DNA of 64,000 nt from Psammoneis japonica (GCA_008632985.1 QPGO01000124.1:124001-188000); one strand, 5' to 3'. Numbered from the stretch's first letter, positions 3,880 through 41,986 are shown. Notes: generated by a model not told the origin, from the letters alone. Numbers and translations: made by a program.

Positions 3880-5325
3880 TTGGCATCAATTTGTTGTCAA
3901 CCAAAACATTGTGAACATCGCTTTCAAAAGGTTAAAAGTGACGGAATTCTGACAGTTGAGGGAGGGGTCCCACTGGTGAAGGAGGGGTCCCATGGTGAAA
4001 AATGGCACACTGTGATGCATGATAAAAAATCACGTTCTACACAACTCTCTCAAAAGGACAGTTGCATGTTTGTGCACACAACAGCATCAAAAATTGCCCA
4101 CAAGAAGGGTGGTCAGGATCACCATGTTTCGCGCTCTGATGAGGGTGCAACAGCTCATTGCGGTCAGGATGCCTCCAGTGACCGTGAAGGAATGGAGAAA
4201 GCTGCTGTGATTTCTGCTGCATCTCTGACCTGTCTTTTGCATCCTCACAAGCTTGTGGCATCCAAGTTGGGCCCAGTTGCCGGGTCTGCTGCATGCAACA
4301 CTGATGCTGCTGTTGCATCTCATGTTGCAGATGCACTCACTGTGGATGCTCAGATGGACCCTGCAGATGCTAATTCTTTGAACATCAAGTCTGTCAAGTC
4401 TGTCATGGTGTCTGCGGGTAAGCCACCTGCAGTTGTTGATTCTGGATCCCTCGAATTTCCCACCGAGTTGGTGGCACTTCCTGCCAAAGTCCACACCTGC
4501 CCACTCAAGACCCCCAAGTATTTTGTGTCTGGCAACCCCATTGTTTCATGCAATGGTGGTTGTTTCAATCCATTGGATGGATCATGCTACATCACCAAGG
4601 TCACCCATGAGCTGTTTGCTGCCTCTGTGGCACCGTGGTGTGATGCGTGTGACACCCATGGACGCAGCCAGAGCTCTGTTGGTTGTCAGGTTGATGTGTC
4701 TTTGGATTTTTTGGCTCGGCCATCGTTGGTTTCAGATGTGCAACACTGCCATTCCTTCCATTGTCTGAACAAGACCAACAGAAGTGGGGCAGTTGTGAAA
4801 GAGGGCCAACGAGTCTTGCTGCCTTCCACTGTCCCGTCTCTTGCCTTCGCTGCCAGGACTGTTGTGATGTCGAATGGCATTTTTCCTGGTGCTCCCAACC
4901 TGTCAACCATCCCTGATGATGACCCTGCACTTTATGATCAAGGGAGGGTTTCCTGTGGTGCAGAGGAAGCATGCAAGGCTGTTGAGAATTCCAACTTCAA
5001 TGGAGAAACCTCACTTGATGACCATGATTTGAACACCGTGCGATGCTCACCTGCGATGCGTCACTGTTCTTCCAACATTGAGCAACTTTACGATGTGCTT
5101 TGTTTGTCCAATGTGTTTTTCAGGGGTGACACAACCAGTGGTAGAAGCACTGGCTCATCAGGTGGATTGCTGTTGGCTCATTTTCACCGCATCATCCGCG
5201 CCATGGTGGTTTTCCAATTTTTGGCCCCATCTCTTGGGATGTGTTTTGGTGATGGTGTGACTCACCAGAATGTCCCATTGTGGTCGATTGTTTGTGGATT
5301 GACAAACTTGTTCTTTGGTGCATGA
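3880..5325 (+). pseudogene. Fossil ORF, unrecognised product
   Basis: 481-codon open frame with protein-like composition inside TA-depleted DNA. No motif recognised. Confidence 0.35.
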
Positions 5326-8300
5326 CTCAATTTGTCCAAAAGATTTGTTGGGAACTGCCTTTCATGTTTTTTGTCGAAGACCGATGCACTTGCTGCGGGT
5401 TGGGTGCTTCATTCCCGACATGCTCATTGTTTGATGGGAAGTTGTTGTTGATTGTTGTCGTGTTTGCGGATCAAGTCTTTGTCATTTCTTTTGGTCCTTC
5501 TCTTTGTTTTGCCATTCTGGTCCTCATTTTTTCTTTGGATTGTCTCTTTTCTTTCTTGATGAGCTTTTGCATTGCTCATCAGGGGAGGGTGACAGACATC
5601 CAAGATTGCACTCCCTTGTGTCGGACAGACCAGCATGGACAGCACAGAGAGATCCGATGATCTCTCTCTGCTCACTTTCTTTCTCATCTAGCACATGGTT
5701 GTCATCTGTCCCAGATGTCAGTTAGATTGTCCCGATGTCAACAGTCCGCAAGCACTCCCAGTCCAGGGTGCAAAATTTTTTTAGAGCACAGCATCTTTGT
5801 GATGGCCACATCATGTGTTCAGTCCAGCACAGCAAGCAAAAGTTGTTGAGGGCAGGAGAGCAAGCTGGGCTCTGAAAGCAAGCACATGCTGTCAGCCATT
5901 TGTTTAGAGGCACAGCAATCCAGATTGAACAAAACCATCCTTTCCTCTGGAGCCCAAGATTTGTGGTTCAGCCATCTTGTTATAATCAGCTCACACATGC
6001 AAGCCATGAGCCATCTCAACTTTTTTGAGAGCCAATGCTGTGGCCAGGCTGACTCCTGGCTTGCAACAAAAGTTGTTCTTGTGCATTGCAACAAAAGAGT
6101 GCAAGCTGTCTTTGCATCAGAAAATCAGCAACAAAAAAGTCAACACAAAAACCAAAGTTGCGCAACTGCACAAAGCAGCCCTGAGGAGCTTGGGTTGGAA
6201 TCAGCTCTTGTCAGCTTTTTGGCCTTGTCAGATGCAAAGGAATTCTGCCTGCAAAAATCTGAGACAACAGCAAACTTTTCAGCACTTCAAACTTTTGCTG
6301 CTGATGGGAGAATTGCTTGATGACAAAACGAGCGGCGTGCATTTGTCAAAACATTTAATCTTCACAACCAATGCCAGAGTTTCTGTGCAAACTGCCAGTG
6401 TGCAGAGATCATTGCATGTCATTCAGACCTTTTGACACAACATGCTGCAGGGGGGCCAGTTTGCTCCAGCCCCCCCCCCCCCCCTGCTCATTGCATGTGA
6501 CACACCCAGCATTGTCCAACCAACCACAACTTTGCACGTGTGCATGCAACAATGCACTGGACTGGCAGTCATGCAGAGTGTGCACAGAAACACATTTCAA
6601 GGTGCCCACATGCTTTTTTTGCCAAGATTGCCCTGTCACTGGTTTCTCTTGTAATGGCAGGAACTCTTGACATGCAGCCAGGAGGTTTGGAGCCCATGTT
6701 GACTGGCACCAACACACACAAGCATCAAATTTTAGAGAGTTGACTTCAATTTGCTGCCAAATGTTTTTGAAGAGAGTGAGGTCTGTTTCCAGGTTTTCAA
6801 CACAAAAAGCACATCCTCCACACATCATGTCTCATCATGTTCAAGAAGGACAGGGTTGTTGACAGTGCACACGCACATGCTGGCATGCCGCACAGTGCAG
6901 TCAAATGCACCACCACATGTGCACACTTCTGCCATGACATGTGTCTGCTGAGAGGAACTGCTGGACAGCTCAGGTGCATCCAAAAGCCTCTGCCACATCA
7001 CAATGCCATCACCACAACAGATCCAACAATTGGCGGCTGTGTTGCAGCCAAACACTCTCTTTGTGATCACCTCTGCACTGGCACACAGGGCAAGACCACA
7101 CAGGGCATTGTTTCTGCTCTGTGGTTCTCCAGACAGGCAAAAGGCTGATGGCCTCCTCATCATCATGAGGAGACTCCAGAGGTGGGAAAATGTCTTTTTT
7201 GTGGCACTTCTGCACAAAATGCATGCTGATGTCAAACCAGTGCTTTCCGCACACAGAGCAAGAATGAAAGTGCAAATGCTTGTGCCTTGTGCCATTGATG
7301 GCAAAGTCCTCCAGTGATGTGACACGACTGGCACAACAAGTGAATGACTTGCAAGGAGCGCCAATTTTGTGCTTGCTCTGCTCAATCTTCTGGTTGGGGG
7401 CAGCCCCATTTTCTTTGACAGTGCCACACAAACTTGCTCAGGAAGAAAATTGAACTTTTGCCAGAATGCAATGATTGTCAGAACTTTCAGAAAAAACACC
7501 AAAGTGCTTTTGACTCCATGTGGGGACTTGCTCATGGAAAGAAGCAGCACAAAAAACATGTGGCCAGCTTGTTGCAAACACAGATTGATGCCAGCCAAGC
7601 TTGGCCCATGATTTGTGGAATTTGGTGATGTCTCTCTTCTGAGCATCTTCCTCCGCACCAACTTCTTGACAAAGAAGACTTGACATTGAGCTGCACTTGT
7701 CATGTTTGCAAAGAGCAGCCTCAGATGACATTTTGTCAACAACTGCACTGGCATCAACAACTTCAAAATGGCAAGTGCTGTCAAGAGCTCATGGGAACTT
7801 TCTGCCACATGGAGCCAGTTGCTCAAGGTGAAAGATGTGTTGACTTCAAGAAGTGCACACTGTGCACCCCCTGCCACAAAAATGCAGCAACTCATGTGAG
7901 AGATGTGATGGTGTATGAAGAACAGCACAAAAGAGGTGTGCTGAGCCTTTGTCAACACAAGACAAGAACTGTGTGCATTGAGAGGAGCATGTCCTCTCAC
8001 ACAAACAGGATTGGCTGATGCAGGCTCCAAGGTGGCTTTTTTTCAAGCAGTCAAACAGGCACATGATCTTCATCCAAGAGGCTGTCTTCTTTTTTCACAT
8101 CTCCCAAATTGCCCTGTTGTGAATTCAGTCATTGAAAGCTGCGCAAATGAAAGCTGACAGGAGTTGCTGCTGTCAACTGACAATGTCCATGTTGTTGCAA
8201 GTGCAGCCAGGAGCCACGACCTGTGTTTTTGTTCTGCCTGGCCAGCTCACCATGACTTGAAAGCTCCAGAGTTCCAACGATTTGCCTCAATGCCATGTGA

Positions 8301-9652
8301 TCTTGCAAGTGAGACCTGGCCACCTTGACAATCCACTGTGCAGACTTGCATTGTCCCACAGACTCACATGGGTGCACACTTGTTGAGGTTCGAAGTCACT
8401 GGCCATGGGCCCACTCCGCGGCGCTTTGTTTTCTACGCCAAAAAGAGAAAGTGCATTTTTTATTCCTTCGCATGAGTCGCCACCACTCGGGACTGTCCAT
8501 TTTTCCAGACGCACCTCTGATGCGGTCGCCAAAGTGCTCACTGTCGGTTGTTTTGTGGCCTTCCATTGGATGCAGATGAAGTGCATGACTTGTCGATTGC
8601 GCCACAATGATGTGTTTTTTTGAGATTTGCTGCAACAATCCGCCGCGCGGGAGATTGATTTTTTGAGGAGAACGAGAAAAGGCGATCCAACATGAACAAA
8701 GTTAGGGCACAATGCCCACAAAAACAATCAAGTGAGAGCACCAACTAATGTGCCAATTAAAACGCAAGATAAAAACAAACAAAAAAGAAACGAAATGTCC
8801 TCAACTGTTCCAATGTGAAAATCAGTGTCTCACAACATTTCGTTTTCAACTCAAGTGCACGCATTTTCTGGGAAAACAGCACCAGATCCTGATGGGGGGT
8901 TTGCAAACATGGCATTGTTTGCACAACCAAAGAGTTCACTGATCGGAACCAGATTGTTGATCAAACAAATGTGGTCTCTGCAATTTGGGCAATCTCCGCC
9001 ATCGCCACCACCAACATTCCCTTCAAACTCGTTGTTTGGCTTCTCGAGACAAACTTCACTGCCAAAGTCTGGAGCGAGGGCACCTCCACGAGTTGCGACA
9101 TTGTTGGCAAAGATGCACCCCTTGAAGGTGCCCTTTGCGGGAGATGAAGGGTCTTTTGCTGCGACACACACGGCACCACCCCACTTTGCTGTGTTGCCAT
9201 CAAAAAGAGTCCCTTCAAATGTTGCTTCGGCTCTCATCACCAGCGCAGCTCCTCCTCCCTGTTGTGTTGCCCAAAGAAAAGAAAATTCGTCAGTCCGTGT
9301 TCAACGCTGTCAAAAACGAATTAGACTGACTGCGCACAATGCCAGTGGGTGCAAATTCTCCGTTGTTTCTAAACTCGCAGTCGACAACAGATGCCTTGGT
9401 GGCTGGAGTTGCGCCGATTGCTGACTTTGTGAGAAGCGCACGAACACCTTGAGGATCGTCAGCTGACCGCCAAATGCGAATGTTAACAGGTGAGTCGGGT
9501 GTGAGACAGAAGCACACGGCAGACAGAGAGCAAGTTGGTGTGCCAAGGTGCCTTGAAATTCTGAAACGCAATGCGTCTGAAAGCAGTGTCTGAACCTTGT
9601 GCTTCCACTGCCAAGGCACAGTCGAGATGATCACCAGTCGTGTCGAAGGCGG

Positions 9653-9817
9653 CGAGTAAAATCCGATGCGGTGGTCGTGCAGATGGTGCCAGTGCGAGCC
9701 ACAAGAGAGAAGAGCAGCTTGTGACGTTAGAGAGAATGATGCGATAACGAAATCTTTAGGCTTGCGAACGGTGAGGGAGCTGTGGATGTAGCCGCACCTC
9801 CACATCCAGATTTTTTC
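9653..9817 (+). repeat. 5' LTR of copia element
   Basis: Direct repeat of 16177-16341, ungapped, 14 mismatches by manual alignment. Confidence 0.93.
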
Positions 9818-9821
9818 GCTT

Positions 9822-9834
9822 TGTCAGAGCCAGG
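9822..9834 (+). promoter_or_regulatory. Putative tRNA-iMet primer-binding site
   Basis: TGTCAGAGCCAGG just after the 5' LTR matches the TATCAGAGCCAGG part of the known copia Met PBS (TGGTATCAGAGCC) with one TA->TG change. Confidence 0.55.
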
Positions 9835-10276
9835 CTTCAGAGTGAGCATCTGGGCGCATTGAAACTATGATCGCATGACCTGCATTGAAAGCGACACGCG
9901 CACACGTTCGCTGTTGTTGAGAACCACCTGGGAGCTGACCGTAGAAAGTGCACTGAGTCCTGCGTGTGCGAATCTGCCACGTGTGAACGAGAAAATTGTC
10001 GAACTTGACGATGGGATTTACGGTCAGAATGGGATCACGCTTGCGACTCAAACAGTTTCCAACATGCCGGTGGGTGTTGGACAGCGCAGCGTGGGGCGGC
10101 ATGCCCGGGCACGTGCCCAACGAGAAAGAAACGGTCTGGGTTTGGCCACCCAGCACCGGTTGACTGCATGGACCCATTGCCATGGCGCTCGGATGCGTTC
10201 AGTCTCCCAACCAACCCAGTGTGCGTGTGCAAATCTCACAACCTGACCTTTTTCCCTTACATTCACCAACAGAACT

Positions 10277-11754
10277 ATGGCAGCAGCCCTGCCAGGAGCA
10301 GCCCTCGCGGCTTTGGCAGCAGCTGACGACGTTGATGCCGCATTGCAAGTGTGTGGCTTTGCCAATCAAGGAGCAAGGGCTCGCCTCGTCTTTTACGATG
10401 GATTTGACACCCTGGAAGACTTGGCCCTGATGGAGAGTGACAAAGACATCGAAGAGCTAGCAAGTCGCGCCGGCAGGCGTGCCGTGCAGGATGGCAGGGT
10501 GGTGACAGGGCCATCCAGCTCAAAAATCTACAAGTCTTGGTTTGGTGGCTTCGTGATCTTCAGAAGCGTGGACAAGCCCTGGTGGCGGCAGACTTTAATC
10601 ACGCGGTGTTGGTTGTGGCACGTGAGTTAAAGCGTGTTCAGGCCAATCGTCCCGACTCAGATACGAAAGTGAGCGACCTGCCAAAGTTTAACGCGGATGA
10701 GTTTGAGACTGTGGAAGACGCGTTCCTCAACCTCTTATCTCAGAAGCTTGGGGTCAATCAGGAACCGTTGCATCATGTGGCAAGGCCCGCAGCAGCACCG
10801 GCGGCATTTGCAGACACTGCCGAGCAGCGCATGTTCGACATCCCCTTGAATGGACCATCCTACGAGGAAGACAACAAGACCGTGTGCCGTTTCCTCAAGG
10901 AATGCCTCATCAACACGGACGGGTGCACATGGATTGAGTCTTTCAATGACACCGAGGATGGGCGGCGTGCCTTCTGGGCATGGTCCAATCACCATGACGG
11001 CCAGGGCGAGCTCAGCAAGCGCACTCAATTGGCCAAGACTCAGCTCGAGATGCTGCACTGCAAAAACGAAAGGCACTTGTCATTTGAAATGCACACTTCC
11101 AAACTGACCAGCGCTTTTGCGGCACTCCACAAGGACCCTGATGAGCGCAGGACAGCCACCCAGAAAGTGGATGCACTCCTAAAAAAGATTAAGACGGACG
11201 ATGTCACCCTCCGCGCATGCACGGCGATCATCAGCGAACGCTTTGGTGATGACTTTGCAGGGGCCTGCGCCTTCTTCTCTAAGGAGGTTGCTCGTTTACA
11301 CGGCCCAGCGCAGCTCGAGGCGCAGCATTGCAGGAACAAGCGTGAGGTCTCCCAGGTTGCGGGTGGCCAAGGATGCAGTCGCAACCGCGATGGAGGAGGA
11401 CGCGGTCGCGACGGTGGCCGTGGCCGCGGCGGTGAGGTCTCAATCAATGGTGTCGATTGCACTGACCCAACTCGCACCTTCTCTCCCGACGAATGGGAAA
11501 GGCTCAAACCCAACAGTGGTTGGACTCATGCAAGGCAAGCTGGGGAGCGCATGCAGGGCCGTGGAGGCCATTTGCAAGGGCGAGGTGGCCCTTGCAACAA
11601 CGAACACCAAGTGGCAGCAGTGCAGAAGGATGGCAAGCAACAGGACGATCATCAAGTGACACCCAGCACCGCAGGTGGCGGAGGAGGCAGCGACGACAAG
11701 GGTGGGCGTCATGGCGCAGGATTCGGGCGCGGTGCCTGCGGAGGGCGGTCCTGA
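10277..11754 (+). pseudogene. gag: Copia gag (frameshift near 10540)
   Basis: Overlapping ORFs 10277-10630 and 10537-11754, 'DGRRAFWAWSNHHDGQGE' segment and RGG-rich C-terminus. Confidence 0.8.
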
Positions 11755-11772
11755 AGGTGTGGGGCAACAGCT

Positions 11773-14700
11773 TTGACAGCACTTGGTGCACACTGCGCAA
11801 ACGTGTTTGTCTTGCCCTTGATCTTGGTCTTGTTGCCATCTCAACCCCACCCAAATGCCCTCAAAAGCATGCCTTGCAGGATCTCAGTGATTTCCAAGCG
11901 CAGTGCAAGGGCCGCAAATGCGGCCACGACATCAACACACACAGAGCCGGGGCACGTTTTGCGAAATGAATGCGACACACATGCAGACACTTGCTGCACC
12001 GGAGCCAATTGGAAACTCATGGAGCTCACGAACGAAACATGCGAAGCAAGTCCTTTCCTTGAATCACACGAACCTGTTGAGGAAATTCCGGTCGCACGTT
12101 GCTGCACTGTTTGGACAGACCCAGAGACGACGAAGGATTGCCTGCTGGTGGGCGACCAGATGTTGTGGTTTGGGCAGCAGATGGAACACTCCTTGATCAA
12201 TCCAAACCAACTGCGTGCATGCAACATGCCAGTCAATGACAACCCACACAATCCTCAGGACTCATTTGGCATTTCAACGGACGAAGCCTTCATCCCTTTC
12301 CACACCACGGGGACAGCAGTGTCCTTCGATGCTCGAGTGCCAACAGATTGGGAGGAGCAGAATTTGCCAGTTGTCATCTTGACCAGCGAGATGTGGAACC
12401 CGACAGAGGTGGGTGTGGGTTTCCCGAACAAAACTTGTGAGCAACAAGAAATGCGCACTGTTCAATCCTTGACCTCTCACATGCGCAAGTCCGAGATTGC
12501 AGAGATGAGAGCAGAGAGAAAGCAGTCCAAGGCGGTAGGATGGGGAGAAGTCGAAGAAACCATGGCAAGCATTTCCCCGATTCACAACCTCCAGACGTTC
12601 TGTGACCGCATGATTGCATCTGTGAAGATTGCTTGCACACACAGGGAGGATGTTGACAGGCACGAGCATGAGATCTCTGAACTGAGGACCCAAGATGGAC
12701 ACTCAAAGATCACTCCGGAAGAGCTGGCACGCAAGTGGAACGTCGGCCTGGACACAGCAAAGGACATGCTCAATGTGACGACTCAGCGAGGTGTCAGGAC
12801 GTCGACACGGCCTGTGTCGAGGCGCGTCAGGGTGGATCACTTGGACCTGCACCGAAAGCGACTGAAGGGGACGTGGTGTGCCGATGCCCTAATTTCAAAG
12901 GTCAAGTCATTGCTGGGAAACACGTGTGCGAACGTTTGCACTCAGGGGAAGTTTGTCAAAGTCGTTCCCATGGCAGCCAGGTCAGACTCAGGGCAATCAT
13001 TGATCGACTTTACGGATGATGTTGGTGTGCCTGAGATGTTGCTCACGGACGGTGCTGGAGAGTTCACTGGCAAGAACACGGAGTTTGTCAAACACGCGAG
13101 GCGCATGTGCACTCAGCTCCAAAACTCAGAACAGGGACGCAAGAATCAGAACCATGCGGTGGAATGCGAGATTGGATTCCTTGCAAAGCGCTGGAGACTC
13201 AGGATGACGAAGAAGAAAGTGCCGAAGCGATTGTGGGATTTTGGACTTGCACACGAGTCAGAACTGGTGACGCGCATGGCCAGATGATGTGATTGCAGGA
13301 CCGGATGTGAGGAAGTGACTGGACAAACACCGGAGATTGGTGAGCACTTGGATTTCGGGTTCTGTGACTCAGTGTGGTGGTGGGACCGACCAGACAAGCC
13401 AAATGCAACGGACGATCCCAGGCGGCTTGGGCATTGGCTTGGCATGTTGCACAAGGTTGGGTCCGACATGTGCCACTGGATCATCACCGAGAGCGGCAAG
13501 TTGGCATCGAAAACCTCAGTGGAGCACGTTGTGCAGGCCGATCACATTGAGTTGGACAAGCGGAAGCAGATCGATGATTTCAATGAGGCCTTGACTCAGC
13601 GACTTGATGACACGAACTTTGTGATTAAGGGCGATGAGGCAGCACCGGCTTTCTGTTTGGACGATGTTGCAATCGATGGAAGCGATGGGATTCAATGCAA
13701 AGAGGGCGCAACCCCGAGCAACGAGGAGTGCGGTGACATGCTGCAGGATGGTGAGCGCCCAGACGACAACAAGGAGGTTGTTGACCAATGTCTTGGCATG
13801 GAGCTCATCATGGACGTTGGCACCAAGGGCGAAAGGTGTGGGGCAGTCACAAAGCGAGCACGCGGCAACGATGGCAGGCCCCTGGGTTGACGGCACCAGC
13901 ACTCACTGTTTGACACGAGGGAGTGTGAGGTCGAGTTTGCCGACGGCATGACAGACAAGTGTGCTGCGAACATCATTGCCGAAAACATGCATGCTCAGGT
14001 CGACTCGGAGGGGCGTCAATTCTCTGTCTTGCAGGAGATTCAGGACCACCGGAAAGCTGCAGATGCGGTCAGCAAGGAAGATGGCACGGTCACGACAGCC
14101 GGTGGGCAGGTTGAACACAAGGTCACGACGAAGGGATGGGAGCTTCTAGTGCTTTGGCGTGATGGGAGCACAAGCTGGGTCAAGCTAAAAGACTCCAAGG
14201 CATCTGACCCGATTGAAGTTGCCGAATGCGCGGTGGCGAACCGGATCTCTGATGAACCAGCATTTGCTTGGTGGGCATCACATGTTTTGCGCAAACGCAA
14301 CCGGATCATTTCCAAGGCCAAGTCGAAGTGCTGGCGCACAACGCACAAGTTTGGGGTCATGCCACTGAAGAGTGTGGATGATGCGCTCCGGATCGACAGG
14401 GAAACGGGGACAGATTGCTGGGCACAAGCAATCAATGAGGAAATGAGCAAGGCAAAGGTTGCCTGGCGGAAACACGAAGGTGAGACACCCGAGGAGGTTT
14501 GTGAGGGTAAGAGCAACACGTTGCGTGGTTGCCAGGAAATCCAGTGTCATGTGGTCTTGACGTCAAGATGGACTTCACTCGCAAGGCAAGGTTTGTTGTG
14601 GGTGGACATGCCACCACAGCCCCAGATTCGATTGCATGCTCCAGTGTGGTTTCCCGAGACAGCGTCCGCATTGCTTTCATGTTGGCGGCGCTCAACGGCA

Positions 14701-16030
14701 TTGATGTCACTGCGATTGACCTGGAGAATGCACATTTGAACGCACCGTGTGCCGAGAAGATGTGGTTTGAGGGTGGCACTGAGTGCGGCGAGTTCAAAGG
14801 GTGCGCATTAATTGTTGTCAGAGCACTTTACGGACTGAAGAGTGCGGGGTTTTCTTGGCGATCAGCTTTTGCCTCTGCACTCCGCGATGTGGGTTTCGAG
14901 CCGACTCCAGCAGATCCAGACATTTGCCTGCGTGCCGCGGCTCGCGGGGATGGACACGAGCACTGCGAGATGCTTTTGGTCTACGTCGACGACGTGTTGA
15001 TCGTATCACACCAAGGCAATTCAATTTGCAAAGCGATTTTGTCGCACTGCAAAATCAAACCCGGAAGCGAAAGTGAACCTGAGACATGCCTGGGCACCAC
15101 AATCGAGAAGGCACAGACTCCAGATGGGCGAATGATTTGGGCCAGCTCTAAGGGCGTGCGTCAAGAATGCAATTAAGACAGTGGAGGACCTGCTGACAGA
15201 GGACGGCGATGGCGCGGTTCTCAAGAACAACGTAAAGGGCCCGTTTCCAGCAAACTGCAAACCGGAATTGGACGTGACGGACGAGTTGGGGCCAGAACTG
15301 CCATCGCGACACTTGCAGCTGATTGGGATGGCAAGGTGGGCGATTGAACTTGGGCGCATTGATGTGCTGCTTGAAGTGTCTTTGTTGTCTCAATGCCAGG
15401 CAAATCCGAGGAAAGGGCATTTGGAGGCGCTGCATCACGTCTTCGTGTGATCCGAAGGTGCCTGAGGTTGATGAGTCACTGTTTGACACCAAGGCGGACA
15501 GGACGGAGTTCTACGGAGAAGTCGAGGAGGAGATGCCACCCAGAATGCTGAAGGCGCACGGGAATCCAGTGACCATCAGTGCATTTGTCGATGCGAGTCA
15601 TGCTGGGAATGTCATTGCTCGCAGGTCGCACTCTGGAATTATCCTCTTTGTGAACAATGCACCAATCATGTGGTTCAGCAAGAAGCAGAGTGCAGTGGAA
15701 ACGTCGCATTTGGGAGCGAGCCAGTGGCAATGCGGATTTGCAAGGAGATGATTGTCGCACTGCGTTGCAAGCTTCGCATGTTTGGGGTCCCGGTCGATGG
15801 GCCGGCGAATGTGTTTTGTGACAACCGTGGCGTGGCAAAGAATGCAAGCATTTCGGAATCCACGTTGCACAAGAAGCATGACGCAATCAACTGTCATTCA
15901 GTGAGAGAAGCAGTTGCGGCTGGGTTTGTGAGGGTCGGAAAGGAAGATGCTGAGACCAATCTTGCGGATCTGTTGACGAAAGTTTTGAAAGGCGAGAAGT
16001 GGTGGCAGCTTTGTTTATTTCTGTTTTGGC
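11773..16030 (+). pseudogene. pol: Copia pol (protease, integrase, RT, RNase H) with stops and frameshifts
   Basis: Motifs 'DTHADTCC' (PR-like), 'TDGAGEF' and 'QNHAVECEIG' (INT), 'DFTRKARFVVGGH', 'RALYGLKSAG' and 'VYVDD' (RT), 'FVDASHAG', 'CDN' and 'NLADLLTK' (RNase H). Confidence 0.92.
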
Positions 16031-16176
16031 AGCCAAGGTCCAGGGCCTGTGACTCGCATCCACACCTTGCAACCTCCCAGCCAAGCTAGTTGGCGGCTAA
16101 CTGGGTGTGTTTTGCCTCTTGACAAGAGGATGTTTTGAGAGTGCGAGTCGGTCTGGCAATGCCGACTCACGGGGAC

Positions 16177-16341
16177 CGAGTAAAATCCGATGCGGTGGTT
16201 GTGCAGACGGCACTGGTGCAAGCCACAAGAGAGAAGAGCAGCTTGTGACGTTAGAGAGAACGATGCGACAACGAAATCTTTGGGCTTGCGAACGGCAAGG
16301 GAGCTGTGGATGCAGCCGCACCTCCACATCCAGATTTGTTC
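16177..16341 (+). repeat. 3' LTR of copia element
   Basis: Direct repeat of 9653-9817, preceded by a short purine tract GGGGAC. Confidence 0.93.
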
Positions 16342-16474
16342 GGCGGTGCCATCAATCGTGCAGTCCGTGTTGCCCCCCTCACATTCCACCTCACTGGTGG
16401 TCCCATGAAAAGACACTGTGCGGGTGAGAGAGATGGTGGCTCCCAAACAGACAGCAATGCGCCTGAAACCTTTT

Positions 16475-16870
16475 GACGCGTTCCAGCTCTAGGTGGGACC
16501 TCGCACTGCTGGACTGTGACACAACCATTTTTTGTCATCCGTCGCATGTTTTGCATGTACATTTCTACGTGTTCTGTTGTAAAAAATTGTTCCACACTGC
16601 CTCTTTTGCGAAGCCAAAGGCTTTCTGTTTTCTGCATTCATGGCAACAAAAATGCGCTGGGCATGTTGTTTAATGTCTAAAGAACACACCCGGGCAAACT
16701 GTAAATGACGCACTTCAAATTTGGAGGAGGAGATGCGTTCGTAAAATTGCCTCTATTTCTGTCAGCGATCATTCATGTTTTCATTGCTTGACAATTTTAC
16801 TGCGGAGCTCGCACGTAGAATTCTACGCGCCCAATGTCACAAAAAGTCCCACCTGGGATTGGAGCAAGTC
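16475..16870. mobile_element. Non-autonomous TIR element (family A, copy 1)
   Basis: Termini GACGCGTTCCAGCTCTAGGTGGGAC...GTCCCACCTGGGATTGGAGCAAGTC with 4-bp TSD TTTT. Homologous to 18279-18669 in inverted orientation. Confidence 0.85.
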
Positions 16871-17696
16871 TTTTGACGCTGCAATGCAAAAAGTCGTGTC
16901 ATTCGACACACACGTCAAGGATCTCCACTTGTCGACAACGTTCTCTCTAATGTTGGAGAAAAATTGTCCCAGCGACGGCGTCAGTCGTCAGCTGCTTTCA
17001 TTTCTTTTGTGCTCTCCGTGGAGTCAAAGCGAGGCTGCACCTTGACCGCCTGCCAGGACAAGCATGACAAAGAGGAGGGAGAAGGAGTGCAACTTCATCT
17101 TCAAAAACATCAGCGCAGTGGGGGCGTCCTCTTGGACGGGAAGAGACATGGCAGGTGCAGCCGTGGGGAGAGGAGTCGTTGGTGTTCTTGTCGGGACTGC
17201 AGCGGCAGAGATTGCCGGAGGAATGTCCTTGCTTGCTTCTCCGCGGTGGTCTCCGCGGTCGGCCGTGATGACGGCGGTGTCCGTTCTCGTCGATTCCGAC
17301 ACATTCCTTGTTGGTGACACTGGCACAGGCCTTTTGGTGTCGCTTGTCACGTTTGTGTCTTTACGAGTCACGGCCTGCATGCATTCATCATTTGGAATCC
17401 GTTGGCAACAAGCCATGCCAATTTTTGAGAAAGAGATGGCACAGCAGATTCCACCCAACCCTCTTCTTGATGACTCTCCACAACTCGCTGCATGTCAAAC
17501 ACAACAGCCTTCAGTTGGCCGTGTTCACCCCGGTAGATCCCCACATTCCGCCAAGCTACATCGTCATGGCAAAAGCCATTTTCTTGAAAGTCCTCCCGCA
17601 GTGTTGTCTCAACAGCCTTCAAAGTTTCCTGTGTTCGCTTCGGACATTGAAGCCAGGGCATCAGCAGGGCTGTTTGCTGCATGACTTGAGGGCGCA

Positions 17697-18006
17697 CTGA
17701 ATTAAAGTCGTGCATTGGGCACACCCTCCAGCGAAAAGTGGGGGAGGGAGGGCAATGGTGCAAAACCATGTCATTCTGTAAAACACGTGCTTTGTTGTGT
17801 AAAACACATGATTGGCTCAGCACCTCATCTTCTACGTAGGATCCACATGGGACCTGTCCGTCGTGCGCCGGGCCGTGTTCCACATTTTGACTGTTCATGC
17901 GTGCCAAATGCACGCGCGTTTTACAGAAACGTCCGTTTTACAGATCTGGCCATTCGGGGGCAAAAGTGGGGTGAGGGCATGCGTCCAATGCGCGACTTTA
18001 ATTCAG
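17697..18006. mobile_element. Tc1/mariner-type MITE
   Basis: TIRs CTGAATTAAAGTCGTGCATTGG...CCAATGCGCGACTTTAATTCAG, flanked by CA on both sides (17695-96, 18007-08), read as a mutated TA TSD. Confidence 0.8.
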
Positions 18007-18278
18007 CATGCCCTGAACGGTTCGAACAGTCTGCTTCACGGGATGAAGATGTGAGGACACTTCTTTCCATGTGCGCAACTCATGTTCCGCTCTGCGCGCA
18101 GCATCCTTGAAGAAAAACTTCAATGCGCCTGCAGCGCCCTTTGTGCCGCCAGAAACAAGGAAGGCTTTGCCATCAGCACCAGCACCAAGATGTTCCCAGA
18201 GAAAAAAATTCCTCACAACATTGGACACACACAGATCAAAATTCAAGCTTTGCAATGGCGGAGCCTTTTTCCACACAA

Positions 18279-18669
18279 GACGGGTTCCAGTCCCAGGTGG
18301 GACTTTTTGTGACATTTGGCCCGTAGAATTCTACGTACGAGCTCCGCATTACAAGAATTCAATTGATGGACATTTTTGTCTTCAACATCAAACAAACGAC
18401 CAAGTTTGTGGTGCAATTGTGACCATTGCCGCTTGACATTTTCGGCAATCCGCCTGCCCTGCACCATTCTCAAGACATTTGCAAATGGCGCAGAAGAAAA
18501 AAATGTCAAAAGTTGTTGGACGGATCGCTCAACAAGTGTGCCACAAAATGACACAAAATTTCAGAAAAGTCACGTACCTTTCTACGTGCGCGACATGTGA
18601 TGCGATCCAAAAAACAGTCGATGTCACAGTTCAGCAGCACGAGGTCCCACCCAGAGCTGGAACGTCGTC
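18279..18669. mobile_element. Non-autonomous TIR element (family A, copy 2)
   Basis: GACGGGTTCCAGTCCCAGGTGGGAC...GTCCCACCCAGAGCTGGAACGTCGTC with TSD ACAA (18275-78, 18670-73). Excision restores the kinase-gene frame 'ETTFVWKK'. Confidence 0.88.
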
Positions 18670-20030
18670 ACAAATGTTGTTTCACTGGCCAAACGTAATG
18701 CTTTGGGCAAGCAATCTTGCCGGGCAAGCATCATCTTTTTGATCACCGACAACAACACCTTTGGGAGACGACTCTCATTCCATTCCACTGCCTCCGTTCT
18801 GCAGAATTTGCGAGTGTGGTCATCGGCGCCCAAAATCTCCATGCCCGCAACTGATTGTGGAACATCGGGAGACTGTGTGAGCACCCAGGGCCTTTTTTCC
18901 GACTGGGAGTTTGTTGCAGCGGTGGAGAGTCTGCTTCCTCATCCATCAAATTCATGTCCCCGAACTCATTCACCAAGTCTTGTTTCGGCTTCACTGGATT
19001 GGTGTGTGGATCAGGTGATGGAAGTTGTGCAAGAGCAGCGCGACTGTTGCTCGCTGGTTCGTCCAACCAAAAAATTCTCCACTGTTTGTAGCTTGCAAGT
19101 GTCGCAAAAGGAATGTCCACCCCAAACATGCTGTGAAGATGTTGCAATTGGTCGCACACCTCGCCCAAAACATTTGGATGGGTCATTGCACAGTCACCAG
19201 GTTGCTTGCCTTCGATCGTTCCGACCAGATGACCCTTCATGAGTGTCACCATGAAATCCGGCCGATTTGTCATTACTTCAACTTCTTCACGAATCGTTGT
19301 TGCTCCTTTGACGCCCATCGCATCAAGAACATCCATCAAAACATGCTCCACAAACTTGTTGACTCCACTCTCATTTGCAAAGCCGCCAAGGTGGCCCTTT
19401 TCGGTGATTCGATTCCATGTGTTATCCACGGGGAAGCCAGGCTCTTCTAAATCTGAAAGGACTGAAAACGGGGCCATTTTCATAGAGGCTGGTGCATGTT
19501 GCTCATCCGTTGGCACGTTGGGGTTGGATGTGAAATGAGCAGACTCCGAGAGTGGTCCCATTTCTGGCAATCCATGTGAGAAGATTGATCGCTGTTGTTG
19601 CTGCTGTTTTTCTAGCTAGCTTGTTGCCAAGTTCACACGCCAGGGGTCCTTCAACAGAGGTGTGCTGCCACAATTCGTCGACCGAAACACCCAACAGTCT
19701 CGATGGTTTGTTGTAACCAGCCGAGAGAAGCTGGGCTGCAGCAGCACCAGCGTCGTCCTCATCAGCCCCTCGACTTTTCAACCATGCTTCCAGCTCATCG
19801 TTGCTCTCAAACTTCGCATCGTCACTCATCTTTCTTTAGATGCCAGCTGGCAGCAACATGAAAGGCTGTTTGACGACGAATGACGAGCCACTCCAATGAG
19901 CCATGTGCAAAAATCACGTAGAATTTTTACGTAAAAAAATTCATAAAAAGCAGGGTCGGTTTCGTCGGGCAGATTTTTTTCTCGTGCTCGCGGCGCCAAA
20001 TGCCCAGTTGCCACACCCGGGGGTCATTGC

Positions 20031-20724
20031 GAATCATAGATTCCCTGCCACCACCTCGGCTTGGCTACAACCCCGATGACATGGCACAGTGCAAGCCACC
20101 GAATGGACGCAACAATCAACACACGAATGTGTCCAATGTGTGACACATGTGTGAGCACATGTGTTTGTGTGATGCTGCTGAGATGGCAGCTAGAAAATGG
20201 GGAACAAATCTACGGATCTAAATCCGTCCATTTTGTTCTCCAGCACTGTGTGAACAGAGGGCAGTGTGGGTGGGAATTTTCAGCGTTGTTGGCCCATGTC
20301 GGGACACCGCAACTGATCCCATTGCTGCCGATCATCTGCCAAGAACAATGAGGGAACATGGGCGGCCTCTCGTCGTCGACCGTCATCTGTCCATCCACCT
20401 TCGACTGTGCACTGCCATCGCGCGGTGACTCCTCCAAGAGCGCGACCGCCCACAAGGTGTCCTCTCCTTGTGCTTGGCCTGCCGTCTTGGCTTCGAGAAT
20501 CGTAGATTCCCTGCCACCGCCTTGGCTTGGCTACAACCCCGATGACATGGCACAGTGCAAGCTGCCAAATGGACGCAACAATCAATGCACGAACACATCC
20601 AATGTGTGACACACACACGAGCACATGTGTTTGTGTGATGCTGCTGAGACAGCAGCTAGAAAATGGGGAACAAATCTACGGATCTAAATCCGTCCATTTT
20701 GTTCTCCAGCACTGTGTGAACAGA
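20031..20724 (-). repeat. Ngaro 3' repeats B2 (20031-20258), A2 (20272-20497), B1 (20497-20724)
   Basis: The B copies are 228-bp direct repeats. A2 matches 26340-26566. Confidence 0.9.
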
Positions 20725-21146
20725 CCATGCTGCTGCCGACGCATTGTACGAAGTGCAATGTGCGCGCCCATGTCATCGGAGGCACAAGAGCCAGCCGGGA
20801 AAAAAAGAAAAAGAAAAAGAAAAAAGAAAACTGAGATTTAAACGAAGAATGTGACTCGTCGGTCCGTCTCGTGCAAATCGTCATAAAACGACATTATGAC
20901 ATTTTCGCCGTCATTTTGACAGTGCGATCCACTTGATCAAGTCGTCAAATTCACGATGATGTGGACGCAGACGAGTGTAGAATCATTGCCGAAGCGGAGC
21001 TCGCGAGCAATGGGCAGACGAAAAACTGCACCCACCGTCTGTCGGATGTGAGTGTGCCGCAAAGAGGAAAACTCAGCCAAAATGAACACATTCATTTTTG
21101 TAAAAGAAATGAAAGATGCAAATTTTCAAACCACAATTTTGAAAAA

Positions 21147-22250
21147 TTACAGAAGGTGGGGCATGGCCACGGAGCGGTCGAGCGCCCGGCATTGGCGATC
21201 TGCCAGCAAAGCAGAATTACGCAAGTGCACCATGAAGGCAGCAGAGCGCCAACGCAAAAGAAACTGAATAGATTCGGCGCTAAAGTTCATTTGGTGAAGC
21301 ATCGAACAAGCACCAACGCGAAGAGAGTGGGCCAACCATTGCTTGATGGCCTTTTCGTCCTTTTCCGGATCAAGTTTGTAGACCTTGGCAGCCACCTCAC
21401 GCATGTCCTCTTCAATGTCCTTGGAGGTGATGAGCTTTCACTCGCTGCCAGCAGGCTTGCACAGCGACAGAGGTGTTGTTGCATCATTCTTGCCGCGAAT
21501 GCGGACGAAACGTTCAATGATGCAGTGCACAGGCTTGACCAGATCAAGCCCTCCTTGGCGAAGATTCAAGGTGAAGATCTTCTCCTCGCCATGATGGCCA
21601 TTCTTCTGAGTGTGCCACTTGATCCACATTTTGGCGATAGACTCGACCGGGACACTCAGAATGTCAGCCCCCTTGAGTCGTTGATAATTCGTGGTCTCGA
21701 TGCGGACATCATTCAAGCACCATGCACGAGTGGCTCCCTCAAAATTCAATGCGGGATGCTCCGGATTCAAACAAGCTCGCAGTCTGTGCCCACTCTTGGA
21801 GACGGGCACCACAAAATGAGCACACTTGGCACCAGTTGGCAACAACGCAAGCAAAACCATCCGGGTCAGCAGAACGCTGGGCATCGGCCCGCGCCTTGGA
21901 TTCTTGCAGCATTTTGGCACTGCAGCACTCTCGGCGGTTCGGAGCTTCATCATGTGTTCGAGCTCCTTCTTGACAGCCGTGAAAATGACACCCATTCTAG
22001 CATCAGACGGATGATCAAAGTGATGATCGCGGCAGCGTCCGCACAGTGCAACAAATTAGCAACATCTCGAACATGGCTCATGGCTGCATCCGATTTTAGC
22101 TGTTTGCAAAATGTGGGGTTACCTCCTGCAACATGCAGAGCGTACATGGCAAGCTGAAGCTGACAGCGGCGCTCCGGAAGCCGTTCCACAAGCATCTCCG
22201 GGTCATCCACGTCCCATTTCATGTCCTTGGCGAACTTGAAATAGTGAATG
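21147..22250 (-). pseudogene. Tyrosine recombinase of the Ngaro element
   Basis: 'HSLRVGA...LLRWRSAAFMVHLRN' shows the H-x-x-R and W box, with His where the catalytic Tyr is expected. Frame is broken. Confidence 0.85.
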
Positions 22251-41933: not shown

Positions 41934-41986
41934 TACAGTAATATCCAATCACTCTCTCTAGAAAACTAGGTGTTGTGATATGTATT

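What the first reader, a model, noticed from the sequence alone, without database searches (positions are those of the whole stretch)
9653..16341. LTR pair records post-insertion mutation confined to TA/CG dinucleotides
The LTRs were identical at insertion. Manual alignment gives 14 mismatches in 165 bp: three TA vs CA/TG (gataac/gacaac, tttagg/tttggg, gatgta/gatgca), three TG<->CA double swaps (ggTGcCAg/ggCAcTGg, ggTGag/ggCAag), four CG vs TG/CA, and one other. Independent hits on opposite strands in the two LTRs indicate mutation of integrated dsDNA. ADAR-type editing of the RNA intermediate would be strand-biased and copied to both LTRs. LTR-divergence dating would overestimate element age here.
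Basis: partly seen in the sequence, partly recalled or inferred. Interest (0 to 1): 0.75.

Follow-up and report, generated by a model that had tools for sequence, protein, structure and literature searches.

The report
TpA and CpG decay in diatom retrotransposon
The two end repeats of a dead diatom retrotransposon differ almost only at CG and TA steps, and the whole silent region around it has had nearly all its TA steps turned into TG or CA, a rare DNA-scrambling process so far reported only in one unrelated alga.

Summary
In detail: 9653-9818 and 16177-16342 are a 166-bp LTR pair with 14 mismatched bases (4 CG vs TG/CA, 3 TG/CA double swaps, 3 TA vs CA/TG, 1 transversion). All 13 random transitions fall in these classes in 3 of 100,000 trials.

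The element is a dead Ty1/copia retrotransposon of a diatom. The larger feature is that TA is almost erased. TA observed/expected is 0.12 in the element and 0.11 across the silent domains 1-35800, 52600-55000 and 62000-64000, against 0.54 in the genic domains and 0.54-0.87 in 41 related elements.

Homologues give the direction. Of 29 conserved Tyr codons, 18 are now TGY and 7 CAY. Of 88 single-transition replacements, 48 are TA>TG/CA and 21 CG>TG/CA. Loss depends on the base 3' of the A (T>C>G>>A), and CA and TG rise equally.

So two decay processes acted on integrated DNA: ordinary CpG decay, and a TpA-specific A:T>G:C hypermutation faster than it. The closest precedent is a 2026 preprint on Bigelowiella natans; my searches found none for diatoms. 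The enzyme is unknown. Naive LTR dating is inflated roughly tenfold.

The parts
9653..9818 (+). 5' LTR (166 bp); retains 5 TA
   Evidence: Direct repeat with 16177-16342. TA positions. First 69 bp identical in a short-read contig that spans the flank.
16177..16342 (+). 3' LTR (166 bp); retains 2 TA
9649..9652 (+). Left copy of the target-site duplication GCGG
   Evidence: Read. Identical 4-mer at 16343-16346.
16343..16346 (+). Right copy of the target-site duplication GCGG
10343..16056 (+). Remnant of the gag-pol polyprotein gene of a Ty1/copia element. It is aligned to ~1400-aa diatom copia polyproteins. It has at least four frame changes after 14556 and three in-frame TGA codons.
   Evidence: tblastn of 30 homologues P0241-P0270; 54-62% identity to full-length polyproteins.
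14568..15023 (+). Reverse transcriptase domain (Pfam RVT_2); the YVDD tyrosine at 14982 is one of 3 Tyr codons retained
   Evidence: Pfam E=1.5e-15
11752..11754 (+). In-frame TGA
13285..13287 (+). In-frame TGA (homologues have Gly)
13888..13890 (+). In-frame TGA where homologues have Arg (CGA>TGA, CpG-type)
1..35800 (.). TA-depleted domain that contains the element. TA o/e is 0.00-0.36 per kb. The sub-domains 4000-8000 and 28000-35800 are also CpG-poor (0.09-0.36), with CA+TG up to 1.9.
   Evidence: the boundary at 35.6-35.9 kb is sharp within about 200-400 bp
52400..55100 (.). Second TA- and CG-depleted island between genic stretches
61700..64000 (.). Third TA- and CG-depleted domain (runs off the window)
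29030..30174 (-). SF3B3-like pseudogene fragment inside the depleted domain, with Y>H and R>C/W at conserved sites
   Evidence: Pfam CPSF_A; composition; PDB SF3B3 E=1e-19 with residue alignment
36000..52300 (.). Comparison domain with ordinary composition (TA o/e about 0.5-0.7, CG about 1). It holds ABC transporter, carbamoyl-phosphate synthase, HHL1-like and STAND ATPase genes.

Best explanation
The pair is the two LTRs of a dead Ty1/copia retrotransposon in a diatom genome. After integration, the element and the whole silent domain around it were eroded in place by two context-specific transition processes that act on both DNA strands.

1. CpG>TpG/CpA. This is the usual outcome of deamination of 5-methylcytosine in methylated transposons. 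It has removed about 12-27% of the element's CpGs.
2. A faster, unusual TpA>TpG/CpA process (A:T>G:C). It has removed about 83% of the element's TpAs and 25 of 29 conserved tyrosine codons.

The TpA process reads one strand at a time. The A:T pair is lost fastest when the A is followed by T, then C, then G, and hardly at all when followed by A (5'-TAY-3', equivalently 5'-RTA-3' on the other strand).

The LTR mismatches are therefore independent hits in the two copies. CG vs TG/CA come from process 1. TA vs CA/TG, and most TG/CA double swaps, come from process 2.

Shown: the spectrum, its direction, the flank rule, strand symmetry, confinement to domains with sharp edges, and that part of it is post-integration.

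Inferred: CpG decay is methylation-driven, and the TpA process is enzymatic and targeted at silenced or foreign DNA. My preferred chemistry is deamination of adenine to inosine in DNA by a TadA/ADAT-like deaminase (about 45% of the weight within this explanation). Oxidised or otherwise modified thymine that mispairs with G is the main alternative.
For: Structure:
- LTR pair, target-site duplication, RVT_2 domain and ~1400-aa copia homologues named from Nitzschia and Fragilaria.
- Host is a diatom: every named hit to the malate dehydrogenase ORF is a diatom.

Spectrum in the LTRs:
- 13 transitions and 1 transversion, all transitions at CG, TA or TG/CA steps. Random placement reaches this in 3 of 100,000 trials.

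Direction:
- In 875 conserved codons compared with 30 homologues, the 29 Tyr columns are now Cys-TGY (18), His-CAY (7), Tyr (3) and Ala (1).
- Of 88 replacements explicable by one transition, 34 are TA>TG, 14 TA>CA, 12 CG>TG, 9 CG>CA and 19 other.
- 34 of 41 A>G changes are preceded by T, and 14 of 18 T>C changes are followed by A.

Magnitude:
- The internal region has 37 TA against 212 expected from 32 related elements, and 379 CG against 513 expected.
- TA o/e is 0.12 in the element against 0.54-0.87 in 41 related loci.

Flank rule:
- Fitted loss exponents for the base 3' of the A are T 2.23, C 1.09, G 0.49, A 0.03 with the genic baseline. With the related-element baseline they are T 1.92, C 1.33, G 0.41, A 0.25.
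- ATAT occurs 0 times against 86 expected; TTAA occurs 38 times against 37 expected.

Both strands:
- CA 581 vs TG 596 in the internal region.

Post-integration:
- The LTRs differ at these sites. Per-copy loss estimated from the LTRs (CG about 0.15; TA 0.43-0.66, in less susceptible contexts) is of the same order as the loss in the internal region.
- Other copies of the family in run X1 carry TA where this copy has TG (5 of the 40 best-supported differences).

Domain targeting:
- Depletion switches on and off within about 200-400 bp at 35.7, 52.4, 55.1 and 61.6 kb, and there it coincides with CpG depletion.
- It also covers an SF3B3-derived pseudogene.

Precedent:
- Mutation-accumulation lines of Bigelowiella natans show hypermutation almost exclusively A>G/T>C and only at TpA, in integrated viral DNA, with TpA-poor, CpA+TpG-rich clusters enriched in transposon domains (preprint 10.64898/2026.01.13.699255; abstract, Results and Discussion read).
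- Diatom transposons are CpG-methylated through DNMT5a in Phaeodactylum (PMC9998398, passages read).
Against: - Everything rests on one 64-kb window. No genome is held, so no genome-wide LTR spectra could be made.
- In the other three young repeat pairs only 1 plain TA/CA mismatch is seen, against 20 CpG singles. The TA signal there rests on interpreting the doubles.
- A single-rate model fits neither origin for the pooled doubles.
- The 5' LTR keeps 5 TA while the interior keeps 17% of its expected TA. I explain this by context (LTR TAs are mostly TAA/TAG-type), but the numbers are small.
- TA retention is uneven inside the element: 18 TA in 9866-11297 against 5 in 11300-14100. This is unexplained.
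- Ancestral residues are inferred from homologues only 54-62% identical.
- The genic baseline for the flank rule may not equal the ancestral composition, although the related-element baseline gives the same order.
- No methylation data, no inosine or modified-thymine data and no deaminase gene were available, so the chemistry is inference.
- Run X1 may be the sample the assembly came from and is not independent. Its near-identical contigs differ from the window mostly by CG where the window has TG/CA (14 vs 3 among single-contig rows). That could be allelic or paralogous variation, or some consensus error at CpG in the assembly.
Confidence: 0.75

Rival explanations
1. Ordinary CpG decay only. 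All TG/CA doubles come from ancestral CpG hit on opposite strands in the two LTRs, and the three TA/CA-TG mismatches are ordinary background transitions that happen to lie next to A or T.
For: 10 of the 14 mismatched bases can be written as CpG events. With only 3 non-CpG transitions in this pair, their lying in CA/TG/TA steps is not significant on its own (my estimate, about 0.08). The other young pairs are dominated by CpG singles (20) with 1 TA single.
Against: It cannot explain a TA o/e of 0.12 in the element against 0.54-0.87 in relatives. It cannot explain the loss of 25 of 29 conserved Tyr codons, or the 48 of 88 single-transition replacements that are TA>TG/CA. The CG-only model for the doubles is rejected (P=0.011 for this pair; P=0.0003 pooled). 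The flanks of the doubles differ from the flanks of CpGs (P=0.002).
Confidence: 0.05
2. Editing before integration. The RNA intermediate or the cDNA was hyper-edited (ADAR-like on RNA, or a deaminase on single-stranded cDNA, as APOBEC3 does to retroviruses), and the element integrated already riddled with A>G changes.
For: The interior is more TA-depleted (17% of expected TA left) than the 5' LTR, which keeps 5 TA. The family has many diverged copies differing mostly by transitions: 473 of 539 variable places in run X1.
Against: Differences between the two LTRs cannot come from a shared template. CA and TG are equally enriched on the sense strand (581 vs 596). The same depletion covers flanking non-element DNA and an SF3B3 pseudogene, with sharp domain edges. 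The 3' neighbour preference T>C>G>>A is not the ADAR preference (the ADAR preference is recalled, not tested). ADARs being confined to animals is likewise recalled.
Confidence: 0.07
3. The same in-place TpA process, but with the chemistry on thymine rather than adenine. Thymine in 5'-RTA-3' within silent chromatin is oxidised or otherwise modified (5-hydroxymethyl- or 5-formyl-uracil type) and mispairs with G, giving T>C.
For: Sequence data cannot tell which member of the A:T pair is attacked, because the flank rule TAY on one strand is RTA on the other. That modified thymines occur preferentially at TpA in some protists (dinoflagellates, kinetoplastid base J) is recalled, not tested.
Against: Such bases in diatoms are not known to me (recalled; no search was made for this). 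The only study of the same signature favours an ADAT-like adenine deaminase, also without proof.
Confidence: 0.2
4. Artefact: systematic base-calling or consensus errors at modified bases in the assembly create apparent TA>TG/CA and CG>TG/CA changes in methylated repeats.
For: Near-identical contigs of run X1 differ from the window mainly at CpG sites where the window has TG or CA: 14 such sites against 3 in the other direction among single-contig rows. The share of the window's 31-mers held by X1 is only 0.67.
Against: Contigs built from a public run by another assembler reproduce 9300-9721 exactly. They reproduce 10893-11242, 12166-12632 and 14242-14706 with 4, 2 and 3 differences, so the TA-poor state is present in those reads. 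The two differences listed within 12166-12632 (12385 and 12436) are CpG-type. Depletion is graded by flank context and by domain age, and it destroys codons in the pattern expected of real mutation.
Confidence: 0.03
5. Fungal-type RIP or another C>T repeat-induced process, perhaps through the RID-related DNMT4 of diatoms.
For: Diatoms carry DNMT4 enzymes related to fungal RID, of unknown function (PMC9998398, passages). The affected DNA is repeated, and an essential-gene duplicate (SF3B3-like) is affected.
Against: RIP turns CpA into TpA and raises TpA. Here TpA is destroyed and CpA/TpG rise to 1.6-2.0, and the polarised changes at TA are A:T>G:C. Only the CpG part of the spectrum could be of this kind.
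Confidence: 0.03

Closest known systems
TpA-targeted A:T>G:C hypermutation of integrated viral DNA in the chlorarachniophyte Bigelowiella natans (Mettrop et al., bioRxiv 10.64898/2026.01.13.699255; abstract, Results and Discussion read)
   Same: Transitions A>G/T>C confined to TpA, giving TpG and CpA on either strand. Confined to particular domains of foreign or selfish DNA. Long-term footprint of low TpA with high CpA+TpG in clusters enriched for reverse transcriptase and transposase domains.
   Different: Different supergroup branch: a diatom (stramenopile) rather than a rhizarian. Targets here are LTR retrotransposons, surrounding repeats and a host-gene pseudogene, not giant-virus or virophage inserts. 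Erosion is far more advanced (TA o/e 0.00-0.25, against 0.45 for their viral region). It is coupled to CpG decay. A 3' flank rule (T>C>G>>A) is resolved here and is not mentioned in the parts of the preprint I read. Here it is inferred from sequence, not observed as new mutations.
Deamination of 5-methylcytosine at CpG in methylated transposons, and its known inflation of LTR-divergence ages
   Same: CG vs TG/CA differences on both strands in the LTRs. CpG o/e falls to 0.1-0.3 in the older domains. Arg>Cys/His/Gln/Trp/stop replacements.
   Different: It accounts for only about a quarter of the polarised transitions in this element (21 of 88). Methylation itself was not measured.
Repeat-induced point mutation (RIP) of fungi
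   Same: A genome-defence-like, domain-limited, both-strand transition process that ruins repeated DNA and leaves a dinucleotide footprint.
   Different: Opposite chemistry and footprint: RIP is C>T, mostly at CpA, and makes TpA, whereas this process is A:T>G:C at TpA and removes it. No evidence here that duplication is the trigger.
ADAR or APOBEC hyper-editing of retroelements in animals
   Same: Clustered transitions in retroelement copies, and a 5' U/T preference for the adenosine-deaminase case.
   Different: Those act on RNA or single-stranded cDNA before integration and are strand-biased. Here the LTRs differ, both strands are hit equally, and non-element DNA in the same domain is affected.
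Diatom Ty1/copia ('CoDi'-type) retrotransposons (the name CoDi is recalled, from no call)
   Same: RVT_2 reverse transcriptase, a ~1400-aa polyprotein 54-62% identical to diatom-derived proteins, short LTRs, and a 4-5 bp target duplication.
   Different: This copy is dead: 3 in-frame stops, at least 4 frame changes and 26 of 29 conserved Tyr codons replaced.

Membership tests
Ty1/copia LTR retrotransposon | Two direct long terminal repeats flanked by a short target-site duplication | tested here: met
   166-bp pair at 92% identity; GCGG on both sides
Ty1/copia LTR retrotransposon | Copia-type reverse transcriptase (Pfam RVT_2) | tested here: met
   E=1.5e-15, 58 bits against a cut-off of 31.6
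Ty1/copia LTR retrotransposon | Integrase upstream of the reverse transcriptase | tested here: inconclusive
   No rve hit in the window copy at E<=1. However, 11755-13284 aligns to the part upstream of RVT_2 in full-length homologues, a few of which carry PF00665.
Ty1/copia LTR retrotransposon | TG...CA LTR termini, primer-binding site and polypurine tract | tested here: not met
   The LTRs read CGAG...TTCG. PBS and PPT were not searched for. The termini may themselves be mutated.
TpA-targeted A:T>G:C hypermutation (B. natans type) | Mutations are A>G/T>C and fall on TpA | tested here: met
   34 of 41 A>G preceded by T; 14 of 18 T>C followed by A; 25 of 29 Tyr codons now TGY/CAY
TpA-targeted A:T>G:C hypermutation (B. 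natans type) | Footprint of TpA depletion coupled to CpA+TpG enrichment, in clusters | tested here: met
   TA 0.11 and CA/TG 1.61 in the depleted domains, against 0.54 and 1.17 in the genic domains. Contiguous domains with sharp edges.
TpA-targeted A:T>G:C hypermutation (B. natans type) | Targets foreign or selfish DNA rather than ordinary genes | tested here: met
   Copia element, further repeats and a pseudogene are inside; ABC transporter, CPSase, MDH and HHL1 genes are outside
TpA-targeted A:T>G:C hypermutation (B. natans type) | Observed as new mutations at a rate orders of magnitude above background | not testable with these tools
   Needs mutation-accumulation lines or resequencing
Methylation-driven CpG decay | C>T / G>A at CpG on both strands, with CpG depletion in the affected DNA | tested here: met
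   4 CpG singles in the LTR pair; 12 CG>TG and 9 CG>CA polarised; CG o/e 0.09-0.36 in the older domains
Methylation-driven CpG decay | The DNA is 5mC-methylated | not testable with these tools
   Known for transposons of other diatoms (PMC9998398); not measured here
Fungal RIP | C>T at CpA (or another CpN), raising TpA | tested here: not met
   TpA is removed, not made
ADAR-type RNA editing of the intermediate | A>G on the transcribed strand only, shared by both LTRs | tested here: not met
   The LTRs differ at these sites; CA 581 vs TG 596

The most novel reading that the evidence does not exclude
Diatoms have a chromatin-domain-targeted DNA-editing defence that deaminates adenine in 5'-TAY-3' on either strand of silenced DNA. 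It acts faster than CpG decay. It inactivates transposons without making stop codons, by erasing tyrosine codons (TAY is exactly its best substrate) and TATA-like promoter words. It is the same ancient system as the TpA hypermutation just seen in Bigelowiella, which would make it a widespread mechanism of the SAR supergroup mirroring fungal RIP.
Probability: 0.3. Interest if true: 0.9.

Novelty: new member of a known kind. Interest (0 to 1): 0.8.

Why it matters
If real, this diatom genome carries the footprint of a second case of TpA-specific A:T>G:C hypermutation of selfish DNA, in a lineage far from the only reported one. That would make the process a candidate general genome defence of SAR protists rather than a curiosity of one alga.

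The window gives things the earlier report lacked in the parts I read:
- a strand-wise flank rule (TAY) that any candidate enzyme must reproduce;
- evidence that the process outruns CpG decay;
- evidence that it ruins retrotransposon proteins through Tyr>Cys/His;
- evidence that it shares its borders with CpG-depleted, presumably methylated, domains.

There are practical consequences:
- LTR-divergence ages in this genome are inflated roughly tenfold unless CG, TA and TG/CA sites are masked.
- Gene finders will call long false ORFs in these domains, because TAA and TAG are nearly gone.
- Repeat libraries and homology searches will underperform on such eroded copies.

Tried and rejected
- Whole-genome tabulation of LTR pairs: not possible, because no genome is held.
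- Dinoflagellate origin (because of modified thymine at TpA): a spliced-leader motif search found 0 matches, and all named protein hits are diatoms. Dropped.
- Earlier notes of this scan: nothing for this genome or for the words searched.
- RNA evidence: no RNA holder was listed for the stretch.
- Coverage of the 3' LTR in run X1 was too low to confirm it. Only 40 of about 540 variable places were printed, so the family copies could not be used to polarise the LTR sites.
- Pfam on 100 ORFs of the depleted domains gave only CPSF_A hits (two ORFs) and one sub-threshold DUF5898 hit, and nothing inside the second LTR-like element 20272-26566.
- Single-rate models for the pooled doubles fit neither a CG nor a TA origin. 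I attribute this to context heterogeneity.
- A possible protective effect of a following CpG on Tyr codons: all 3 retained Tyr are TAC-G, but 4 mutated ones were also TAC-G. Too few to say.
- Literature searches for this process in diatoms found nothing on TpA hypermutation: diatom + TpA + transposable elements; diatom + RIP + retrotransposon; diatom + hypermutation + transposable; TpA depletion / transposable elements / A-to-G; diatom + LTR retrotransposons + CpG + deamination + insertion age.
- The searches 'deaminase / diatoms / selfish elements / hypermutation' and 'TpA dinucleotides + hypermutation' turned up only the Bigelowiella preprint as relevant. That preprint's supplements are closed and may hold flank-context data that I could not see.

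Full report
**1. The observation**

The region holds one direct repeat pair, 9653-9818 and 16177-16342. It is 166 nt long, ungapped and 92% identical. A base-by-base classification gives 14 mismatched bases:
- 3 CG<>TG
- 1 CG<>CA
- 3 TG<>CA double swaps (6 bases)
- 2 CA<>TA
- 1 TG<>TA
- 1 T/G transversion

All three TA states lie in the 5' LTR, which has 5 TA; the 3' LTR has 2. When 13 transitions are placed at random in either LTR, all 13 fall into these dinucleotide classes in 3 of 100,000 trials, and three or more double swaps arise in 26 of 100,000. The pair is flanked by GCGG on both sides. Read as 5 bp it is GCGGC/GCGGT, with one CpG-type difference.

**2. What the element is**

- Between the repeats, one frame is open from 10441 to 14739 apart from three TGA codons. 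Beyond that point the reading frame changes at least four times.
- An RVT_2 reverse transcriptase domain is found at E=1.5e-15.
- The stretch 11755-13284 finds 232 proteins of similar length and 221 longer ones. The best full-length matches are ~1400-aa polyproteins with RVT_2, at 54-62% identity. The named ones are from the diatoms Nitzschia inconspicua and Fragilaria crotonensis.
- The genic part of the window encodes an ABC transporter, a fused carbamoyl-phosphate synthase, malate dehydrogenase and an HHL1-like plastid protein.
- Every named hit to the malate dehydrogenase ORF is a diatom, with a maximum of 76% identity.

The element is therefore a dead Ty1/copia retrotransposon in a diatom genome. 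Run X1 yields 1441 contig pieces at 82% or more likeness to the stretch, so the family has many copies.

**3. The larger feature: TA is nearly gone**

| Region | TA o/e | CG o/e | CA/TG o/e |
|---|---|---|---|
| Whole window | 0.28 | 0.71 | 1.46 / 1.44 |
| Element | 0.13 (interior 0.12) | 0.81 | 1.51 / 1.49 |
| Depleted domains (1-35800, 52600-55000, 62000-64000) | 0.11 | 0.57 | 1.61 |
| Genic domains (36000-52400, 55200-61900) | 0.54 | 0.98 | 1.17 |

- Per kilobase the window splits into two kinds of domain. The depleted domains have TA o/e of 0.00-0.36; for example, 28001-29000 has 0 TA against 56 expected.
- The switch between domain types occurs within about 200-400 bp.
- In the older-looking sub-domains CpG is also depleted (0.08-0.36) and CA+TG reaches 1.9-2.0.
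- With TAA and TAG almost absent, TGA is nearly the only stop codon there.
- This is not a trait of the element family. 41 related loci fetched from metagenomes have TA o/e of 0.54-0.87 (median about 0.68 by my reading of the list), with CG mostly about 1.0-1.3.
- Scaled from 32 of those loci, the element's interior should hold about 212 TA and 513 CG. It holds 37 and 379, a loss of 83% and 26%.

**4. Direction**

The frame-1 translation has 0.1% Tyr (one Y can be counted in the printed sequence), whereas homologues have 1.5-3.7%. Thirty full-length homologues were aligned to the element's DNA. I kept the 875 codons where at least 10 homologues align and 70% or more of them agree; 708 of these are unchanged in the window.

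- The 29 Tyr columns are now Cys-TGY (18), His-CAY (7), Tyr (3) and Ala (1).
- The 68 Arg columns keep Arg in 55 and show CpG-type products in 8 (Cys 4, and one each of His, Gln, Trp and stop).
- Of the 167 differences, 88 need just one transition: 34 TA>TG, 14 TA>CA, 12 CG>TG, 9 CG>CA and 19 other.
- 34 of 41 A>G changes are preceded by T, and 14 of 18 T>C changes are followed by A.

The direction at TA is therefore loss: TA>TG and TA>CA, the opposite of fungal RIP. The excess of TA>TG over TA>CA in this list is expected from detectability. T>C at a third codon position is silent, and Tyr codons always present TAY on the sense strand. The raw product counts are symmetric, with CA 581 and TG 596 in the interior.

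**5. Flank rule**

The ten NTAN words of the depleted domains were compared with what the genic domains would predict. Survival runs from 0 to 1.0:

| Word | Survival |
|---|---|
| ATAT | 0 (0 found, 86 expected) |
| ATAC/GTAT | 0.03 |
| GTAC | 0.06 |
| ATAG/CTAT | 0.09 |
| ATAA/TTAT | 0.10 |
| CTAG | 0.26 |
| CTAC/GTAG | 0.29 |
| GTAA/TTAC | 0.32 |
| CTAA/TTAG | 0.54 |
| TTAA | 1.0 (38 found, 37 expected) |

- A model fits these counts in which each strand contributes independently, according to the base 3' of its A. The fitted exponents are T 2.23, C 1.09, G 0.49 and A 0.03. The likelihood gain over uniform loss is 229 before halving for reverse-complement pairs.
- With the related elements as baseline and only the element's interior as data, the order is the same: T 1.92, C 1.33, G 0.41, A 0.25.
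- Tyr codons (TAY) are thus the best substrate. This explains why they are nearly wiped out, while the LTRs' TAs, mostly followed by A or G, survive better.
- Of the 7 Tyr>His cases, 6 have a purine before the codon, as the rule requires for a hit on the other strand (my count).

**6. Back to the LTR pair**

Differences between LTRs must postdate the synthesis of the two copies, so both processes acted on integrated DNA.

- For this pair there are 10 shared CG, 4 CG singles, 2 shared TA, 3 TA singles and 3 doubles.
- A model in which all doubles come from CpG predicts 1.0 double and 8 singles, and is rejected (P=0.011).
- Origin from TA fits (P=0.24), with a per-copy loss of about 0.66. CpG alone then gives a per-copy loss of about 0.15.
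- Across six repeat pairs of the window, the 26 doubles have susceptible flanks (purine 5', pyrimidine 3') at 38 of 52 positions. The figure is 71 of 150 for extant or half-decayed CpGs (P=0.002) and 4 of 16 for surviving TAs (P=0.0009).

Most double swaps are therefore best read as an ancestral TA hit at the T in one copy and at the A in the other. The per-copy losses estimated from the LTRs (CG 0.15; TA 0.43-0.66) are of the same order as the losses in the interior (CG 0.12-0.26; TA 0.83). No pre-integration editing is needed. Only 1 of the 14 differences lies outside hypermutable steps, so a naive divergence of 8.4% overstates the background divergence roughly tenfold.

**7. Not only the retrotransposon**

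Inside the domain 28000-35800, two ORFs on the minus strand (29030-30174) match the CPSF_A domain and solved SF3B3 structures (E=1e-19). At conserved positions they show Tyr>His and Arg>Cys/Trp. The process therefore follows the domain, not the element type.

**8. Independent look at the reads**

One public run, X1 (kept as Logan's contigs), holds 67% of the stretch's sampled words.

- Its contigs match 9300-9721 with 0 differences. They match 10893-11242, 12166-12632 and 14242-14706 with 4, 2 and 3 differences. The TA-poor sequence is therefore present in those reads.
- Among 539 variable places against all laid contigs, 473 are transitions: A>G 104, T>C 111, C>T 127 and G>A 131.
- Of the 40 best-supported differences, 24 are CpG-type, 8 are TA-type and 8 are other.
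- Caveats: X1 may be the sample the assembly came from. The 3' LTR is barely covered. Near-identical contigs tend to have CG where the window has TG/CA (14 vs 3), which may be allelic or paralogous variation, or some consensus error at CpG.

**9. Mechanism**

Shown: a both-strand, DNA-level, domain-limited, context-specific A:T>G:C process at TpA, alongside CpG>TpG/CpA.

Inferred:
- The CpG part is 5mC deamination. Diatom transposons are CpG-methylated through DNMT5a in Phaeodactylum (PMC9998398, passages).
- The TpA part is enzymatic. I favour adenine deamination to inosine in DNA by a TadA/ADAT-like enzyme. Such enzymes act on an A preceded by U in tRNA anticodon loops (recalled), and this is also the hypothesis of the only precedent.
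- A modified thymine that mispairs with G is the main alternative. Sequence alone cannot separate the two.

**10. Comparison with what is known**

- The closest case is the Bigelowiella natans preprint (10.64898/2026.01.13.699255). In its mutation-accumulation lines, 231 of 302 new single-nucleotide mutations fall in two integrated viral regions. These are almost exclusively A>G/T>C and all on TpA, at about 6e-7 per site per generation. The genome also has TpA-poor, CpA+TpG-rich clusters enriched in reverse transcriptase and transposase domains.
- The present case shares the signature and the targeting. It differs in lineage and in targets. Erosion is far more advanced, and it is coupled to CpG loss. 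It also adds the flank rule.
- Seven literature searches found nothing on this process in diatoms.
- Fungal RIP and ADAR/APOBEC editing resemble it in purpose, but each fails a defining feature (direction, and strand or LTR sharing, respectively).

**11. Verdict**

- The CpG half is ordinary.
- The TpA half is the interesting part. It is a second, independent footprint of a barely described hypermutation process, in a major algal group where my searches found no report of it.
- The limits are one window, inferred ancestors and no chemistry.

Noticed in passing
window 29030-30174 (-): Fragment of an SF3B3-like (CPSF_A domain) gene with almost no Tyr or Arg left. It is presumably a pseudogene copy of an essential splicing factor, sitting in the TA- and CG-void domain 28000-35800.
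   Followed up: partly
window 16463-16700: Logan word depth of about 86,650 in run X1, against about 56 for the single-copy flank: a very high-copy repeat just right of the 3' LTR. Inverted repeats 16795-16875/18274-18354 and 16467-16534/18608-18678 lie here and could be the ends of a DNA transposon.
   Followed up: no
window 20031-20724 and 26340-26566: A second LTR-like pair (20272-20497 / 26340-26566, 93%) with an extra repeat pair, 20031-20258 / 20497-20724, bracketing its left copy, and a tandem 25845-26043 / 26036-26234. No Pfam domain was found inside. Differences are again almost all CpG-type or TG/CA doubles.
   Followed up: partly
depleted domains, e.g. window 1-35800: Because TAA and TAG are nearly absent, TGA is almost the only stop (for example 384 TGA vs 45 TAA+TAG in 28000-35800). 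Long spurious ORFs therefore appear in all six frames, a trap for gene callers.
   Followed up: yes
window 9866-11297 vs 11300-14100: TA retention inside the element is uneven: 18 TA in the gag-side 1.4 kb against 5 in the next 2.8 kb. No explanation.
   Followed up: no
window 36000-52300 and 55200-61600: Even the genic domains have a rather low TA o/e (0.54), with TTAA at 0.25 and CTAA/TTAG at 0.33. This may be a weak genome-wide trace of the same process or an unrelated bias.
   Followed up: no
window 46468-46470 and 45538-45680: The carbamoyl-phosphate synthase gene on the minus strand is interrupted by what look like two short introns: an in-frame stop inside an insert of about 26 codons, and a frame change.
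   Followed up: no
window 14829, 14982, 15512: All three retained Tyr codons are TAC followed by G and preceded by a pyrimidine. One of them is the Tyr of the YVDD motif of the reverse transcriptase.
   Followed up: partly
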